A stretch of DNA of 64,000 nucleotides from an uncultured Thermodesulfobacteriota bacterium (GTDB lineage: Bacteria > Desulfobacterota > Anaeroferrophillalia > Anaeroferrophillales > Anaeroferrophillaceae), in the NCBI GenBank assembly GCA_964478545.1, contig CAYZIS010000001.1, positions 7,943-71,942 of the forward strand. The letters are read 5' to 3'. The position numbers and the translations under genes are program-made. The notes under the pieces are model-generated. The model saw only the letters and a list, made by a program, of their open reading frames with translations. It was not told the origin of the DNA and searched no databases. Each line of letters opens with the position of its first letter. The first letter of the stretch is position 1. This document shows positions 292 to 59,100 of the stretch, piece after piece.

Positions 292-543
292 TAGACCTTC
301 TACCTTCAGCCTTTCACCTTGTACCTTGCACCTTATACCTTTCTCCTATATAATGGTGCTCATAGAAAATCTGGAACCTGTGATCCTGAGTTAGTCAACT
401 AACTCAACTTTCTGAGTTGCATTGTCGGGAATACATGACAGGATGTTCGGGCTTGGCTCATAGCCGTGTCCGCCGACAGGCAGGGCTGTTTTTAGAGCAA
501 CTCAAAAAGTTGGGTCAACTAATCGACAACGTCTCTACCGCCT
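292..543 (+). repeat. Family-1 composite intergenic repeat. ACCTTNN heptad array 292-345, CAACT-N5-AGTTG hairpins at 401-420 and 496-511, core 439-493 ('CAGGATGTTCGGGCTTGGCTCATAGCCGTGTCCGCCGACAGGCAGGGCTGTTTTT').
   Basis: The core recurs at 2938, 6450, 13034 (reverse complement), 32680 and 42193. The element fills the whole gap between the PMM stop and the HK start. Confidence 0.8.
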
Positions 544-2689: not shown

Positions 2690-3035
2690 AAATAAAGCAA
2701 TTAGCTTTTAGCCATTAGCTATTAGTTTATGATTACAGATACCTACCCATTAAATATTGTTACTAATCAACGTAAAGCCTTGATTTTTAAAAGCTAAATG
2801 CTAATGGCTAACTGCTAATCACCTAACTTGTTTTACTATGCCATCAGTTTTCTGACTTCTGGATAAATAATTGTAATATATTGAAATCATTAATTTTTTG
2901 TTTATCAATATCTCACGTTTATAAAGCAATTACCTAAGGATGTCCGGGCTTGGCTCATAGCCGTGTCTGCCGACAGGCAGGCCATGGGAGACCGGCGAGA
3001 ATGAGCGAGAGCCATGCCGGGACATCATCAAGAAC
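2690..3035. repeat. Family-1 repeat, arm + short-hairpin core variant. TTAGCNN heptad arms at 2690-2745 and, inverted, 2790-2830. Core 2938-3026.
   Basis: Core 'GGATGTCCGGGCTTGGCTCATAGCCGTGTCTGCCGACAGGCAGG...GAGAATGAGCGAGAGCCATGCCGGGACATC' matches the ends of the long form at 42193 but lacks its central segment. Confidence 0.75.
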
Positions 3036-6357: not shown

Positions 6358-6575
6358 GGATAAATCCTTTCGATTTTAGCTGCTAGCTATCAGCTGTTAG
6401 CTTTTAGTAAAACCTCAACTTTCTGACTTTCATGGCCAAAAATACATTACAGGATGTTCGGGCCTGGCTCATAGCCGTGTCCGCCGTGCCTGCCGGCAGG
6501 CACGGCGACAGGCAGGGCTGTTTTTAGAGCAACTCAGAAAGTTAAGCTTGTGCTTTCAGCTTTATACCTTTAGCC
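6358..6575 (+). repeat. Family-1 composite repeat inserted between porA and porB. TTAGCTN heptads 6361-6395, core 6450-6526, ACCTT-type heptads 6545-6575.
   Basis: Contains a perfect palindrome 'GTGCCTGCCGGCAGGCAC' followed by a T-run. Occupies the entire 218-bp porA-porB gap. Confidence 0.8.
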
Positions 6576-12916: not shown

Positions 12917-13268
12917 AACCTAAGCTAAGCAATTAGCTGTTAGCTATCAGCGTTTAGCTTTAAAAAATCAAGGCATTACGTTTATTAGCAACTCAACGTT
13001 CTGACTTATTTTAAAAACAGCTAAAAAAAATTCCAGGAATGTTCCGGCATGGCTCTCACTCATTCTCGCCGGCTATCCATGGCCGGCTTCCGAGGCGTCC
13101 GCCGTCAATCACCATCCAGGTGATTCGTTCGGCGGCCAAAACCGGCAGGCTGGGTAGACACGGCTATGAGCCAAGCCCAAACATCCTGTAAGGTCCCTGG
13201 CAATACAAGCCAGAAAGTTAAGATTAAACTAATAGCTAACGACTAACTGCTTGATTCAGGAGGAAAAC
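12917..13268 (-). repeat. Family-1 composite repeat, long-form core in reverse orientation. Core 13034-13178, heptad arms 12917-12975 and 13205-13250.
   Basis: The reverse complement of the core aligns with 42193-42326, including the internal GAATCACC/GGTGATTC hairpin and the GCCGGCC-ATGGA-GGCCGGC hairpin. Fills the whole gap up to the ilvD RBS. Confidence 0.8.
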
Positions 13269-20038: not shown

Positions 20039-20310
20039 ACTGACCTCCCCAAGCTAGTGGTTGTCTATGATCATCAGCTCATCCGGAAACAGAAATTTCC
20101 GGGTAAGCACCAATTAAAACATGAATTTAATCACCTATTCCTGTACGGTAAAATCACTGTCCTCCAGCCTTATCAACCACCTCTATAAAGATGCATACAA
20201 TATTGACATTCATAAACCACAAACACCGTTCATGTCAAGAACATATACTCAGTCAATGCTCGTCAGTCAGAATCCGCCAGAATCATATTCATTGCAGAGA
20301 TAATGAACAA

Positions 20311-20562
20311 TTGCACAAAGTCAAACCGGGTTTCACTATCAGTATCATCATCATTTTTCCCTTGACATTTTCACCTTCCCCTTATAAGAAACAATTGCAC
20401 AAAGTCAAACCGGGTTTCACTATCAGTGTCATCGTCATTTTTCCCTTGACATTTTCACCTTCCCCTTATAAGGAGAGATTGCACAAAGTCAAACCGGGTT
20501 TCACTATCAGTGTCATCATCATTTTTCCCTTGACATTTTCACCTTCCCCTTATAAGGAGAGA
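20311..20562 (+). repeat. 3 x 84-bp perfect-period tandem repeat. Each unit carries the palindromes AAACCGGGTTT and CCTTATAAGG plus a TTGACA.
   Basis: Unit starts at 20311, 20395 and 20479. Lies in the divergent region between the two acyl-CoA synthetase genes. Confidence 0.85.
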
Positions 20563-22821: not shown

Positions 22822-22880
22822 ATCTGCCCAAACATCCTGATAATATATCCTGGCAACACAAGTCAAAAAGTTAAGTTCTC
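22822..22880 (-). repeat. Family-1 terminal fragment (partial copy)
   Basis: 'GCCCAAACATCCTGATAATATATCCTGGCAACACAAGTCAAAAAGTTAAG' aligns with 13170-13215. Confidence 0.6.
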
Positions 22881-26873: not shown

Positions 26874-26879
26874 GTCGAA

Positions 26880-27202
26880 TGGATGAAAACTATCAACAAC
26901 TGATCAAAGATTGCTTCTGGGAGTATGATGTTACCCCCGCTGACCTAAACAAAATGATCACCTCAGGCGATGCGCGGGAAAAGTAATTTCTTTTCGAAAA
27001 AATCCTGGCCAACAGTATGCACTTGTTTCGTGATTTAAAAATTTTCCCCAAGGATACTCTCGAAATTTTAATCAACAATTATAAAGTTCCGAACTTCAAT
27101 CAGGAATACCTGTCCAAACGAAAAAATATGGTTGAATACCATTTTCTTAAACAGGAATTGAAGTGGACCATCGTCTTTCAAATTGTTCCATATGCTAGCT
27201 AA
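26880..27202 (+). pseudogene. hypothetical gene interrupted by an in-frame TAA stop (26983-26985)
   Basis: 'MDENYQQLIKDCFWEYDVTPADLNKMITSGDAREK*FLFEKILANSMHLFRDLKIFPKD...' reads straight through in one frame. Confidence 0.5.
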
Positions 27203-27588
27203 GGTCGCATTGGAATCTGGAAGATGTTCCATGAAGTTGAGCATAAAAAAAGCGGTAAATGGACCATTATGTAATTTATATTCACTTCATTGGTTTTTCC
27301 CGCACCATTTTGCAAACATCTCCCGATACGCGATCTCGACCTTGCGGGCAAAACCCGGTTCATCCATAAGTTGAGGAAGCATGGATATTGCGATTGACAT
27401 CTGCAGTGATTGCTGTCATCCTTGACGAATCTGAACGTAACTGGATTACCAGTTGTACGGCTGGGAAAACACTTATTGGGTCTGGTTCCATTCCCTGGGA
27501 ACTGGGAAATTGGCAATGCTTTCTCTACTCTGTTTAGGCAAAACAGGTTGACATTTGAGGAAGCCCGGTGTTGTACATCCAGGTTTAA

Positions 27589-27984
27589 TCCCTTCCACCG
27601 CGGCAATGTGGCATTGCAAGACCTGACCCCTACCATGCTATTTGGGCATCTGAAGCGGATGGATCTCTCCAGGTTGCAAAACATCTTTTTGAAAAAAAAG
27701 ATTATTCTTATGCGCTTTTCTTTGGCCATCTTGCTATTGAAAAAATCATAAAAGCGGTACTTGTCAAAAATACCAATCAACAGGTGCCTCGTTCTCATAA
27801 TTTATTGAGATTAGCCCAAGAAGCTCAGATAGAAATAACTGGAGAACAGAAGCGTACTCTAATAAGGATTACAGCTTTTAATCTTGAATCAAGATACCCT
27901 GACTACAAAAAAGAATTCAGGGAAAAATGCACCTTGCAGTTCACTGCAATAGAACTGGAAAAAATCAAAGAGGTTTTTATATGA
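27589..27984 (+). pseudogene. HEPN domain protein (toxin half of a HEPN/MNT pair) lacking an in-frame start codon
   Basis: 'WASEADGSLQVAKHLFEKKDYSYALFFGHLAIEKIIKAVL...VPRSHNLLRLAQEA' (Rx4-6HN HEPN motif). The frame is open from 27589, and the first ATG/GTG/TTG is at 27784. Confidence 0.6.
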
Positions 27985-28427
27985 CTGAAATCGAATCTAT
28001 AGTTTTGAAAAATGTCCAATTGTTTCTAGATAAACTCCGCCGCACAGGATTCCATATTTCCAAGGCCTATATTTTTGGCTCCTATGCCAAAGGACAAGTA
28101 AAGGGTGTTGCAACGAATCGGCTAACCTATTGAAATCATAGGTTTTTTAGCGAAAAACTCCATTCGGGATTTTCCCGGAAACACTAATAAAATCAATGAC
28201 TTACGGCGATCATTGCAACACCCTTAAGTAGATAAGTGGAGTGATATAGATGTGGCAATTGTTTCTCCCCAGATAAGCAACGACCGTTTTGAAGAGCGCA
28301 TAAGACTGACTGAACTGGCAATATCTGTCGATGATCGGATTGAACCGTTGCCATTCAACCCTGACAGTTTTAGCGATGATGATCCGTTTGTACAACAAAT
28401 TAAAAACGAAGGATTAGCAATCATTTG
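27981..28427 (+). pseudogene. MNT-type nucleotidyltransferase (antitoxin half) split by a 125-bp MITE. Fragments are 27981-28100 and 28226-28427.
   Basis: 'IFGSYAKGQV' | insertion | 'DKWSDIDVAIVSPQ...'. ATGA start/stop overlap with the HEPN gene. Removing 28101-28230 restores 'GSYAKGQVDKWSDIDVAIV'. Confidence 0.8.
28101..28225. mobile_element. MITE-like insertion with 13-bp perfect TIRs (AAGGGTGTTGCAA / TTGCAACACCCTT) and a 5-bp TSD (AAGTA at 28096-28100 and 28226-28230)
   Basis: TIRs and TSD are read directly from the sequence. The host ORF is restored when the element is removed. Confidence 0.8.
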
Positions 28428-28789
28428 ATTTGGGTGCGGCTCTTTTAGAGCACAGACAAAACCCTTATGAATAAACGCTCTCTCCTTCTTATCGAATTCA
28501 CCATCAATATTGGCTACTGTTGAATAACTCTTTATTTCACCGCCTATTTTTCAAAATAAAATACCTCCTTAAAACGGTAAATATGCGAATTGATCCACCA
28601 GCTTTATGCTTTCCCAACAAGCTGGTAACTCAGTGGGTTTTTTAGGCATGGGGGTGCCGGACGTGATCGGAATTAGCGCTGTTCCCTACGCCCAAAATTA
28701 CGGCATTTAAGGTGTAATGGTCAAGGAGATTGACCTTGCGAGGCAGGCGAGGGGATACCATGGTTAATGGCATCCAGAAAAAAATCGGC

Positions 28790-29626: not shown

Positions 29627-29702
29627 TGGCTCCCCGGGTAGGATTCGAACCTACGACCTAGTGGTTAACAGCCACCCGCTCTGCCAGTTGAGCTACCGAG
29701 GA
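29627..29702 (-). tRNA. tRNA-Asn (anticodon GTT), 76 nt with encoded CCA
   Basis: Cloverleaf folded manually from the reverse complement: acceptor stem TCCTCGG/CCGGGGA, D-arm GCTC/GAGC, anticodon loop CTGTTAA, T-arm GTAGG/CCTAC (T-loop TTCGAAT), CCA end. Confidence 0.9.
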
Positions 29703-32621: not shown

Positions 32622-32803
32622 TTTTCACCTCTTCTCCTTTAACCCAAACTTTCTGACTTGTGTTACCAGAATACATTATCAGGATGTTCGGGCCTGGCTC
32701 ATAGCCGTGTCTGCCGGCAGGCAGGCACGCCGGCAGGCAGGGCTATTTTTTCATAACTCAGAAAGTTGAGTTTTAAGTATTTGGGGAATAATAGCCAACT
32801 GCC
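32622..32803 (+). repeat. Family-1 composite repeat (core 32680-32750, flanking AACTTTCTGA hairpins)
   Basis: 'CAGGATGTTCGGGCCTGGCTCATAGCCGTGTCTGCCGGCAGGCAGGCACGCCGGCAGGCAGGGCTATTTTTTC'. Confidence 0.8.
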
Positions 32804-41970: not shown

Positions 41971-42169
41971 GAGCTACTCTCAACCTCCTGTTCGGCGCAT
42001 TTTTCAATGCGCTGGTATTTAATGTGACAAATTAAAACAAGTAGTTAGCCGGAACTGGCTGTTTTTGTCAATTATTTTTTTCTCTTTTAGTAACATACTC
42101 CTGAATTTCTGTCACTCTTTTCAGTACCCCCTTGAGGGGTATAAAAAACAAGAAAATTCCACTTTCCGT

Positions 42170-42330
42170 CTAGCATTGTCGGGAATACATTTCAGGATGT
42201 TCGGGCTTGGCTAGCAGCGGGTTTGGCTGCCGAACGAATCACCAGGACGGTGATTCGCGGCGGACGCCTCGGAGCCGGCCATGGACGGCCGGCGAGAATG
42301 AGCGAAAGCCATGCCGGAACATCCTCAGAA
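42170..42330 (+). repeat. Family-1 repeat, long form (core 42193-42326)
   Basis: 'CAGGATGTTCGGGCTTGGCTAGCAGCGGGTTTGGCTGCCGAACGAATCACCAGGACGGTGATTCGCGGCGGACGCCTCGGAGCCGGCCATGGACGGCCGGCGAGAATGAGCGAAAGCCATGCCGGAACATCCTC'. The left flank 'GCATTGTCGGGAATACAT' is shared with copy 1. Confidence 0.8.
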
Positions 42331-58954: not shown

Positions 58955-59100
58955 GGGTCAACTAAATTGAGCTATTAGTTTAATGATTACAGGATTACAA
59001 ACTATCACCCGTTTAGTGCTATCTCTTATTAACGTAACGCCTTGATTTTTCAACGCTAAACGCCAATGGCAAACAGCTAATCGCTAAATCGGGTGCAATT
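58955..59100. repeat. Family-1 heptad-arm module (TTAGCNN repeats in both orientations) without a core
   Basis: 'AGCTATTAGTTTAATGATTACAG...TTATTAACGTAACGCCTTGATTTTT...' aligns with 2700-2830. Confidence 0.65.

What the first reader, a model, noticed from the sequence alone, without database searches (positions are those of the whole stretch)
28096..28230. MITE with 13-bp TIRs and 5-bp TSD disrupting the MNT antitoxin of a HEPN/MNT pair
The TIRs are AAGGGTGTTGCAA and TTGCAACACCCTT. The target-site duplication is AAGTA on both sides. Removing the element restores an intact nucleotidyltransferase reading 'IFGSYAKGQVDKWSDIDVAIVSPQ...'. This is a clean recent transposition event. The element carries no ORF, so an autonomous partner IS must exist or have existed elsewhere.
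Basis: seen in the sequence. Interest (0 to 1): 0.7.

Follow-up and report, generated by a model that had tools for sequence, protein, structure and literature searches.

The report
Small mobile element splitting an antitoxin gene
A 125-base non-coding "jumping" DNA element (a MITE) has recently landed inside a small nucleotidyltransferase (MNT) gene of an already crippled toxin–antitoxin pair; this is a real but ordinary kind of event, and the enzyme that moves the element was not found.

Summary
Window 28101-28225 is a 125-bp element with perfect 13-bp terminal inverted repeats (AAGGGTGTTGCAA) flanked by a 5-bp direct repeat (AAGTA). Removing the element and one repeat restores a 105-aa MNT nucleotidyltransferase that aligns without gaps to more than 180 intact homologues. 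The element is mobile. A 100% identical copy lies in an intergenic site of another contig of the same metagenome, with a different 5-bp duplication (TATAA). A third site exists, and two independent assemblies break inside the element. Diverged relatives occur in other Desulfobacterota and one Methylococcales MAG, and all 10 complete copies have exact AT-rich 5-bp duplications. No autonomous partner was found. The first 13 nt match 12/13 the ends of the ~1-kb ISBth165/ISBth18 insertion sequences of Bacillus. These are IS5-like (DUF772 + DDE_Tnp_1, filed as ISNCY) but make 6-bp duplications, so the parent is probably an undescribed relative. The module was therefore probably already dead, which would explain why hitting the antitoxin is tolerated. 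Verdict: a new member of a known kind, of modest interest.

The parts
28101..28225 (.). MITE: 125-bp non-coding transposable element
   Evidence: Read. No ORF lies inside it. An identical copy is at L060 10833-10957. It folds as a long hairpin: RNA -48.4 kcal/mol, z=-7.5; DNA -25.6 kcal/mol, z=-5.5. No Rfam family matches it.
28101..28113 (+). Left terminal inverted repeat AAGGGTGTTGCAA. An imperfect repeat continues to about 28139.
   Evidence: Exact match. The subfamily alignment shows these columns invariant.
28213..28225 (-). Right terminal inverted repeat (TTGCAACACCCTT on the + strand). An imperfect repeat continues inward to about 28187.
   Evidence: Exact match; alignment.
28096..28100 (.). 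Target-site duplication, left copy (AAGTA)
   Evidence: The intact paralogous cassette L050 has a single AAGTT at this position.
28226..28230 (.). Target-site duplication, right copy (AAGTA)
28191..28203 (+). IHF-consensus-like site AATCAATGACTTA (WATCAANNNNTTR), 23-35 nt from the right end
   Evidence: Its fixed bases (ATCAA and TTA) are conserved in all seven diverged copies. Binding is inferred, not shown.
28123..28135 (-). Mirror-image weaker IHF-like site (TTTCAATAGGTTA, one mismatch to the consensus), 23-35 nt from the left end
   Evidence: Read; conserved. Inference only.
27981..28100 (+). MNT nucleotidyltransferase gene, 5' fragment (codons 1-40, includes G33-S34)
28231..28428 (+). MNT gene, 3' fragment (codons 41-105 plus stop, includes D45-I-D47)
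27641..27984 (+). HEPN gene remnant. It lacks the first 9 codons and any ATG/GTG/TTG start before 27784. It also ends 7 codons early relative to the 128-aa homologue (TGG to TGA).
   Evidence: Pfam HEPN E=2.8e-19. DNA homology to the intact cassette L050 begins abruptly at 27641. ORF list.

Best explanation
Window 28101-28225 is a non-autonomous DNA transposon (a MITE). A DDE-type transposase supplied in trans recognises the two AAGGGTGTTGCAA ends, which are perfect for 13 bp and imperfectly repeated to about 39 bp. Each end also carries an IHF-like bending site 23-35 nt from the tip. The transposase joins the ends to a target cut with a 5-bp stagger, and repair of the stagger gives the AAGTA duplication. 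Targets are strongly AT-rich. This copy landed after codon 40 of a 105-aa MNT nucleotidyltransferase gene, between the G-S and D-x-D active-site motifs, which inactivates it. The MNT gene belongs to a HEPN-MNT cassette whose HEPN (presumed toxin) gene had lost, or later lost, its 5' end and start codon, so the insertion is probably neutral. The element is or was very recently active in this population, because identical copies sit at other sites. The most likely source of the transposase is an undescribed relative of the ISBth165/ISBth18 group. That group is IS5-like (DUF772 + DDE_Tnp_1 transposase, filed as ISNCY), and its ends share 12 of the first 13 nt with the MITE. Shown: anatomy, duplication, gene disruption, other copies, family-wide 5-bp duplications, and end similarity to ISBth165-type elements. 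Inferred: the DDE mechanism, the role of IHF, the identity of the transposase, and the neutrality of the insertion.
For: The terminal repeats and 5-bp duplication are exact, and no such configuration appeared in 100 simulated windows. Excision restores a 105-aa MNT that aligns without gaps to intact homologues (best 93% identity; more than 180 hits with E<=1e-5), with invariant G33 S34 and D45 I46 D47 on either side of the insertion point. The intact HEPN(128 aa)-MNT(105 aa) cassette L050 is 90% identical in DNA on both sides of the insert and has the site once. A second copy, 100% identical, lies at L060 10833-10957 in the same JGI metagenome 3300031645, between rpmF/plsX and a multihaem cytochrome gene, with duplication TATAA. 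A third site is L058, where 99 nt are identical and the contig ends inside the element. The contigs carrying loci L002 (JGI) and L071 (Logan) also end inside the element, as expected for a repeat. Diverged copies (77% mean column identity) occur in five other contigs. All 10 complete elements with AAGGGTGTTGCAA ends, from Desulfobacterota and one Methylococcales MAG, have exact 5-bp duplications that are 92% A+T. ISBth165/ISBth18-type elements (about 996 bp, 289-aa transposase, DDE_Tnp_1 E=2e-21 and DUF772 E=9e-9) end in GAGGGTGTTGCAAAACTA. More distant relatives of that transposase keep the same kind of end: (T/A)AGGGTGTTGCA, GAGGGTGTT..., AAGGCTGTTGAAAAA. Duplication length varies within that group (6 bp in Bacillus and Parageobacillus copies, apparently 3 bp in L177), so a 5-bp subgroup is plausible.
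Against: No autonomous element with these ends was found. The places searched were the window, about 1.4 Mb of fetched loci, the plasmid collection and the viral contigs. The one metagenome scan returned only MITE copies and chance hits. The closest characterised insertion sequences make 6-bp, not 5-bp, duplications. No homologue of their transposase was seen in any Desulfobacterota locus held here. No empty-site allele of this exact locus was found; the best intact protein is 93% identical and lies in another context. It is not proven that L060 comes from the same genome. It is from the same metagenome and shares a second repeat family at 92% identity. The IHF sites match a short consensus only.
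Confidence: 0.88

Rival explanations
1. The element is a Tn3-family derivative (a TIME), moved by a Tn3-type TnpA by replicative 'paste-and-copy' transposition.
For: Tn3-family transposons and TIMEs make 5-bp (sometimes 6-bp) duplications (PMC13367494, read). All 10 complete copies have 5-bp AT-rich duplications. The imperfect inverted repeat extends to about 39 bp and starts with GGG after two A's. From my own knowledge, IHF sites next to the ends are known for gamma-delta.
Against: From my own knowledge, Tn3-family ends are about 38 bp, begin with GGGG at the very tip and end in ACGYTAAG. Here the tip is AAGGGTG and there is no such inner motif in register. The 11-nt core GGGTGTTGCAA is instead identical to the ends of IS5-like ISBth165-type elements. 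At 125 bp the element is smaller than described TIMEs such as the 256-bp MITESen1 and TIME244.
Confidence: 0.05
2. The element derives from, or is moved by, an IS6/IS26-family transposase, because its end resembles the IS6-family end GGTTCTGTTGCAAAG.
For: The string TGTTGCAA(A) is shared with IS26/IS257 ends. This rests on my own knowledge and was not checked with a tool here.
Against: From established knowledge, IS6-family elements make 8-bp duplications. Here all 10 copies have 5 bp. The better and longer match (12/13 nt from the tip) is to ISBth165-type ends.
Confidence: 0.02
3. The element is an orphan MITE. Its autonomous partner has been lost from this lineage, and the identical copies reflect a recent burst or cross-mobilisation by an unrelated or only distantly related transposase.
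For: No parent was found in any search. The nearest insertion sequences differ in duplication length. Copies at 100% identity show recent activity.
Against: Only one scan each of the genome and metagenome collections was allowed, and both used MITE-specific patterns. The absence of a parent is therefore weakly supported. The source genome was not available in full.
Confidence: 0.2
4. The 125 bp is not an insertion. It is a native palindromic segment, an intron-like sequence, or an assembly artefact within the MNT gene.
For: The segment folds into a very stable hairpin. No empty allele of this exact locus was recovered.
Against: More than 180 homologues are 105 aa long with no insert. A 90% identical cassette lacks it. 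The same 125 bp occurs in an intergenic site with its own duplication. The junctions are identical in an independent ENA assembly. No Rfam family, including introns, matches.
Confidence: 0.01

Closest known systems
Bacterial MITEs in general (for example Correia/NEMIS of Neisseria, RUP of Streptococcus, MITEAba12, TIMEs)
   Same: About 100-260 bp in size, no coding capacity, terminal inverted repeats, target-site duplication, many dispersed copies, able to fold into a long hairpin. Correia elements also carry an IHF site (my own knowledge).
   Different: The sequence is unrelated. The 5-bp AT-rich duplication differs from the TA of Correia and RUP and the 9 bp of MITEAba12. No partner insertion sequence has been identified.
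ISBth165 / ISBth18 of the Bacillus cereus group (ISNCY in NCBI annotation; 'tentatively IS5 family' in PMC1626470)
   Same: The ends are GAGGGTGTTGCAAAACTA against AAGGGTGTTGCAA(C/T)GA. That is 12 of the first 13 nt, in the same register from the tip. Short MITE-like elements of Bacteroidales, Lachnospiraceae and Clostridium carry the ISBth165-type end exactly.
   Different: These are autonomous elements of about 996 bp with a 289-aa DUF772 + DDE_Tnp_1 transposase. They make 6-bp duplications, belong to a different phylum, and share nothing with the MITE beyond the end.
[quoted passage not shown]
   Same: 5-bp duplications, AT-rich targets, non-autonomous.
   Different: The Tn3-type 38-bp GGGG...TAAG ends are absent, the element is smaller, and no res-like sequence was sought or seen.
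HEPN/MNT toxin-antitoxin modules (type VII; for example Shewanella SO_3166/SO_3165 and the Aphanizomenon HEPN/MNT pair)
   Same: A HEPN-domain gene and a minimal nucleotidyltransferase gene lie adjacent, abutting here (ATGA start/stop overlap) and overlapping by 22 nt in the intact relative.
   Different: The gene order here is HEPN then MNT. Both genes are damaged in the window. No activity has been tested for this subfamily.

Membership tests
MITE | Small size (well under 500 bp) and no transposase or other ORF | tested here: met
   The element is 125 bp and no ORF lies within it.
MITE | Terminal inverted repeats | tested here: met
   13/13 perfect, imperfect to about 39 bp, and conserved across diverged copies.
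MITE | Target-site duplication of fixed length | tested here: met
   AAGTA here. All 10 complete AA-type copies have exactly 5 bp.
MITE | Multiple copies at unrelated loci | tested here: met
   L060 carries an identical copy in an intergenic site. L058 is a third site. L014, L059, L064, L066 and L067 are diverged copies. Assemblies break inside the element.
MITE | Empty (uninterrupted) site exists | tested here: inconclusive
   Intact paralogous or xenologous cassettes (90% DNA identity, 93% protein identity) carry the site once. No allele of this exact locus without the insert was found.
MITE | Autonomous partner with matching ends | tested here: inconclusive
   None was found in the same organism. 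ISBth165-type elements in other phyla match 12/13 nt.
ISBth165/ISBth18-type (IS5-like, ISNCY) derivative | Ends of the form GAGGGTGTTGCAAAAC | tested here: met
   12 of the first 13 nt are identical and the 11-nt core GGGTGTTGCAA is identical.
ISBth165/ISBth18-type (IS5-like, ISNCY) derivative | 6-bp target-site duplication | tested here: not met
   The duplication is 5 bp in all 10 AA-type MITEs against 6 bp in six of seven full Bacillus copies read and in the Parageobacillus relative. The MITE is therefore not filed as a member of this group, only as a probable derivative of a relative.
ISBth165/ISBth18-type (IS5-like, ISNCY) derivative | Cognate DUF772 + DDE_Tnp_1 transposase present in the host | not testable with these tools
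   The full source genome was not available. tblastn of 330 family members against the window and all held loci found none outside the insertion sequences themselves.
Tn3-derived TIME | 5-bp (or 6-bp) duplication | tested here: met
   definition from PMC13367494.
Tn3-derived TIME | About 38-bp ends beginning GGGG and ending ACGYTAAG, similar to a Tn3-family transposon | tested here: not met
   The ends read start AAGGGTG and lack the inner motif in register. The consensus used for comparison comes from my own knowledge.
IS6/IS26 family derivative | 8-bp duplication | tested here: not met
   The duplication is 5 bp. The 8-bp rule comes from established knowledge and is also mentioned for IS26.
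HEPN/MNT toxin-antitoxin pair | HEPN-domain protein gene | tested here: met
   PF05168 E=2.8e-19. The gene is 5'-truncated.
HEPN/MNT toxin-antitoxin pair | Minimal nucleotidyltransferase with G-S...D-x-D motif | tested here: met
   PF01909 and PF18765 match the restored protein. G33 S34 and D45 I46 D47 are invariant.
HEPN/MNT toxin-antitoxin pair | Adjacent, co-oriented, overlapping genes | tested here: met
   The genes share an ATGA overlap at 27981-27984. Intact relatives overlap by 22 nt.
HEPN/MNT toxin-antitoxin pair | Toxicity of HEPN neutralised by MNT | not testable with these tools
   This needs an experiment. The R-x4-6-H motif of the HEPN was not evaluated.

The most novel reading that the evidence does not exclude
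The window element belongs to a previously undescribed, currently active MITE family of Desulfobacterota (also seen in one Methylococcales MAG). It would be part of a cross-phylum set of 107-137-bp palindromic elements that all end in GGGTGTTGCAA, the terminal signature of a very diverse, largely uncatalogued IS5-like transposase group (ISBth165/ISBth18 of Bacillus, relatives in Methanocella). Its 5-bp duplication would mark a new subgroup of that group, or cross-mobilisation by a distant transposase.
Probability: 0.35. Interest if true: 0.4.

Novelty: new member of a known kind. Interest (0 to 1): 0.3.

Why it matters
On its own this is a routine example of genome decay: a MITE inserted into a gene of an already disabled toxin-antitoxin cassette. 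It has three modest uses. First, it flags a MITE family that standard annotation misses and that breaks metagenome assemblies of these Desulfobacterota. Second, the identical copies show that a transposase able to act on AAGGGTGTTGCAA ends is, or was very recently, active in this population. Third, the shared GGGTGTTGCAA terminus links small elements in several phyla to the poorly classified ISBth165/ISBth18 group, which could help sort that part of the 'ISNCY' bin.

Tried and rejected
(1) Second copy in the window: none by exact, 3-mismatch or short-word blastn searches.

(2) Rfam: no family matches the element. No promoter-like or terminator-like site falls inside it.

(3) Literature search for the end sequence returned only unrelated primer hits.

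(4) Parent search by pairing end-like sequences 0.5-5 kb apart in all fetched loci gave only chance pairs with no transposase between them.

(5) blastn of the element against plasmids: the only Desulfobacterota hit (pHRM2a of Desulforapulum) is a short AT-rich hairpin in a replication/partition region, not a copy. The Desulfobulbus-type MITE found nothing.

(6) A viral-contig scan with the Bacteroidales-type end gave 89 single hits with no partner end. Two of them are ISBth-type elements.

(7) Profile search of the transposase group: 6858 representatives with E<=0.001. Cluster look-ups gave no organism names. Seven representatives or cluster members were checked at the DNA level. Several have GGGTGTT-type ends, but none has AAGGGTGTTGCAA with 5-bp duplications. 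The closest of them, P0246, belongs to Methanocella-like archaea.

(8) The Tn3/TIME and IS6 readings were considered and set aside because the ends (Tn3) or the duplication length (IS6) do not fit.

(9) Pfam scans of the decayed ORFs flanking the cassette found nothing, so no claim is made about them.

(10) The repeat finder did not report the 13-bp inverted repeat; direct searches were relied on instead.

Full report
**1. The observation**

AAGTA lies at 28096-28100 and AAGGGTGTTGCAA at 28101-28113. Then come 99 internal bases, TTGCAACACCCTT at 28213-28225, and AAGTA at 28226-28230. The 13-mer occurs exactly twice in the 64-kb window, once on each strand, at these positions. The element proper is 28101-28225 (125 bp); the reported coordinates include both duplications.

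I tested this against chance. I counted perfect inverted repeats of at least 13 nt lying 30-400 nt apart. The real window has two, and only this one is flanked by a 5-bp direct repeat. In 100 first-order Markov simulated windows the mean was 0.39 such pairs, and none had the flanking repeat. The general repeat finder failed to list this pair, so I rely on the exact searches.

The element has no ORF and no Rfam match. It folds as one long hairpin: RNA -48.4 kcal/mol, z=-7.5; DNA z=-5.5.

**2. The interrupted gene**

Joining 27981-28100 to 28231-28428 gives an open 105-codon frame. It hits Pfam NTP_transf_2 (E=4.8e-10) and Polbeta (E=2.4e-9). A search of 5.8 billion proteins returned 189 relatives with E<=1e-5. 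Almost all are exactly 105 aa, and the best is 93% identical.

In the alignment there is no gap at the junction. The invariant G33-S34 and D45-I46-D47 lie on either side of the insertion point, which is after codon 40. The insertion therefore splits the catalytic core.

The closest relative on long contigs is P0005, 90% identical. It sits downstream of a 128-aa HEPN gene that it overlaps by 22 nt, so the HEPN-then-MNT cassette is a recurrent unit. At the DNA level that cassette (L050) matches the window at 90% identity over 27641-28089 and again over 28226-28428. It has a single AAGTT where the window has AAGTA-element-AAGTA.

It is not, however, an orthologous empty site. L050 lies in a different neighbourhood (type I restriction genes, RadC), and no intact allele of this locus was found.

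**3.

The HEPN frame (Pfam HEPN E=2.8e-19) has no ATG, GTG or TTG start between the upstream stop and 27784. DNA homology to the intact cassette begins abruptly at 27641, which corresponds to codon 10 of the 128-aa homologue. The gene also ends seven codons early through a TGG-to-TGA change.

The presumed toxin gene is therefore damaged too. This gives a simple reason why an insertion in the presumed antitoxin gene is tolerated. Which lesion came first cannot be told.

The surrounding 2.7 kb, between a Germane-domain gene and tRNA-Asn at 29627-29702, contains no other intact gene. It holds at least one frame with an internal stop. Pfam found nothing in these remnants.

**4. Evidence that the element moves**

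- The same insertion is present, base for base, in an independent ENA assembly (L001).
- The JGI contig that holds locus L002 ends inside the element coming from the right.
- The Logan contig that holds locus L071 ends inside it coming from the left. This is the usual behaviour of assemblers at a repeat.
L060, another 65-kb contig of the same JGI metagenome (3300031645), carries a copy identical over all 125 bp. It lies between rpmF/plsX and a multihaem cytochrome gene and is flanked by TATAA.
- L058, from another metagenome, carries 99 identical bases at a third site before the contig ends.
- L059, L064, L066 and L067, together with L014 (a Candidatus Tharpella MAG), carry diverged copies. 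Mean column identity is 77%, with invariant ends.
- L060 also carries a copy (92% identical) of a second repeat family that is abundant in the window, so it probably comes from the same or a closely related organism.

**5. The wider family**

By my own estimate, about two would be expected by chance. They fall into two groups.

- Elements ending AAGGGTGTTGCAA occur in Desulfobacterota MAGs and one Methylococcales MAG. All 10 complete copies, including the window and L060, have an exact 5-bp duplication directly outside the AA...TT ends: AAGTA, TATAA, TTTAA, TTATA, AATGA, TTGTA, ATGAA, ATAAA, TATAT, TAATA. That is 46 of 50 bases A or T.
- Elements ending GAGGGTGTTGCAAAAC occur in Bacteroidales, Lachnospiraceae and Clostridium. 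They show no detectable duplication, and their flanks are often themselves inverted. I did not resolve what these are.

**6. Search for the autonomous partner**

Nothing turned up in the window, in the fetched loci, in the literature or in viral contigs.

A blastn of one Parabacteroides element against plasmids hit the end of an insertion sequence in Bacillus cereus-group plasmids. It is about 996 bp and encodes a 289-aa transposase annotated 'ISNCY-like element ISBth165/ISBth18 family'. The transposase carries DDE_Tnp_1 (E=2e-21) and DUF772 (E=9e-9). It scores below the NCBIfam cut-offs for IS1182, IS5 and IS982. [quoted passage not shown]

Its ends are GAGGGTGTTGCAAAACTA. Six of the seven full Bacillus copies I read have a 6-bp duplication, and the 50%-identical Parageobacillus relative has one too. 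The window element shares 12 of the first 13 nt with these ends, in the same register from the tip.

A profile search shows that this transposase group is large and very diverse: 6858 representatives at E<=0.001. I checked nine further relatives at the DNA level.

- Several keep the same style of end. A Methanocella-like element has (T/A)AGGGTGTTGCA, probably with a 3-bp TTA duplication. Other ends are GAGGGTGTTTAAAAATTCA, GGCTGTTGCAAAACT and AAGGCTGTTGAAAAATTC.
- The two most Bacillus-like of the distant ones have TTTAGGTTGTTGAATAA and GGGAGGTTGTTGCAT.
- None has AAGGGTGTTGCAA ends with a 5-bp duplication.
- No homologue of the transposase occurs in any Desulfobacterota locus held here.

The partner is therefore not identified. 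The best inference is an undescribed relative of this IS5-like group. Duplication length is evidently variable within the group (3 and 6 bp seen), so 5 bp is plausible.

**7. Mechanism**

The fixed-length duplication and the inverted ends are the signature of a DDE transposase acting in trans. This is established knowledge of such elements; the chemistry is inferred here.

Beyond the 13 perfect bases, the two ends remain similar to about 39 bp. Each end carries a match or near-match to the E. coli IHF consensus WATCAANNNNTTR at 23-35 nt from the tip. AATCAATGACTTA at 28191-28203 is an exact match. The mirror site at 28123-28135 has one mismatch. The fixed bases of the right-hand site are conserved in all seven diverged copies. 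A bending protein helping to pair the ends is a reasonable but untested idea.

**8. Rivals**

- A Tn3-derived TIME fits the 5-bp AT-rich duplication but not the ends.
- An IS6-type origin fits part of the end sequence but not the duplication length.
- A native palindrome, an intron or an artefact is excluded.

**9. Verdict**

Two amendments apply: the toxin gene is also broken, and the partner remains unknown although it now has a plausible family. This is a new member of a well-known kind of element. Interest is modest. The more interesting residue is the cross-phylum GGGTGTTGCAA terminus and the active, unannotated MITE family in Desulfobacterota.

Noticed in passing
window 27594-27984: The HEPN gene of the cassette is itself truncated. 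It has no start codon, homology to the intact 128-aa homologue begins at codon 10 (27641), and a TGG-to-TGA change ends it 7 codons early.
   Followed up: yes
window 403-512, 2937-2993, 6414-6543, 13142-13194(-), 22826-22872(-), 32644-32768, 42157-42238; L060 7829-7940: A second, more abundant MITE-like repeat family of about 110-140 bp. Its inverted ends are CTCAACTTTCTGAGTTGC...GCAACTCAGAAAGTTGAG and it has a GC-rich palindromic core. At least five full or partial copies lie in the window.
   Followed up: partly
window 2731-2820, 12922-12992(-), 58993-59082: A third dispersed repeat family of about 90 bp. Each copy carries an exact IHF-consensus match (AATCAAGGCNTTA at 2773, 12966 and 59035). 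The window as a whole has 10 such matches against 3.8 expected.
   Followed up: no
window 20300-20556: Three tandem 84-bp units (94-96% identical) lie in the spacer between two divergently oriented AMP-binding (acetyl-CoA-synthetase-like) paralogues. By eye, each unit contains TTGACA...TATAAG, that is, a promoter-like pair repeated three times.
   Followed up: no
window 26879-27205: An open frame of about 108 codons is interrupted by one in-frame TAA (after ...SGDAREK), probably a pseudogene. It has no Pfam match. Together with the HEPN/MNT remnants, the 2.7 kb up to tRNA-Asn (29627-29702, minus strand) has no intact gene.
   Followed up: partly
L058 1-341: At the third insertion site of the identical element, its end supplies the last four codons and the stop (RVLQ*) of an 85-aa ORF. 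That ORF has a weak Phd/YefM-like match (E=4e-4, below cut-off) and overlaps a ParE-type toxin gene (E=4e-8). Two of the three known sites therefore touch putative antitoxin genes, which may simply reflect AT-rich targets.
   Followed up: partly
L006, L008-L011, L015, L019-L023, L025, L026, L028-L030, L032-L036, L038, L040-L043, L045, L046, L048, L049: Palindromic elements of 107-137 bp in Bacteroidales, Lachnospiraceae and Clostridium genomes, several copies per genome. They end in GAGGGTGTTGCAAAAC, the exact ISBth165-type end, but have no detectable target duplication. In several copies the flanks are inverted repeats of each other rather than direct repeats.
   Followed up: partly
L177 547-1598: An insertion sequence of about 1.05 kb from a Methanocella-like archaeon has ends (T/A)AGGGTGTTGCA and encodes a DUF772 + DDE_Tnp_1 transposase less than 30% identical to that of ISBth165. 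The end motif is thus conserved across bacteria and archaea while the protein has diverged strongly.
   Followed up: partly
L072 4100-4170 (pHRM2a of Desulforapulum autotrophicum): The plasmid region upstream of parA holds repeated GGTTAACC motifs and an AACCTAT...ATAGGTT hairpin. This gave a chance blastn hit to the element's internal hairpin and is not a copy of the element.
   Followed up: yes
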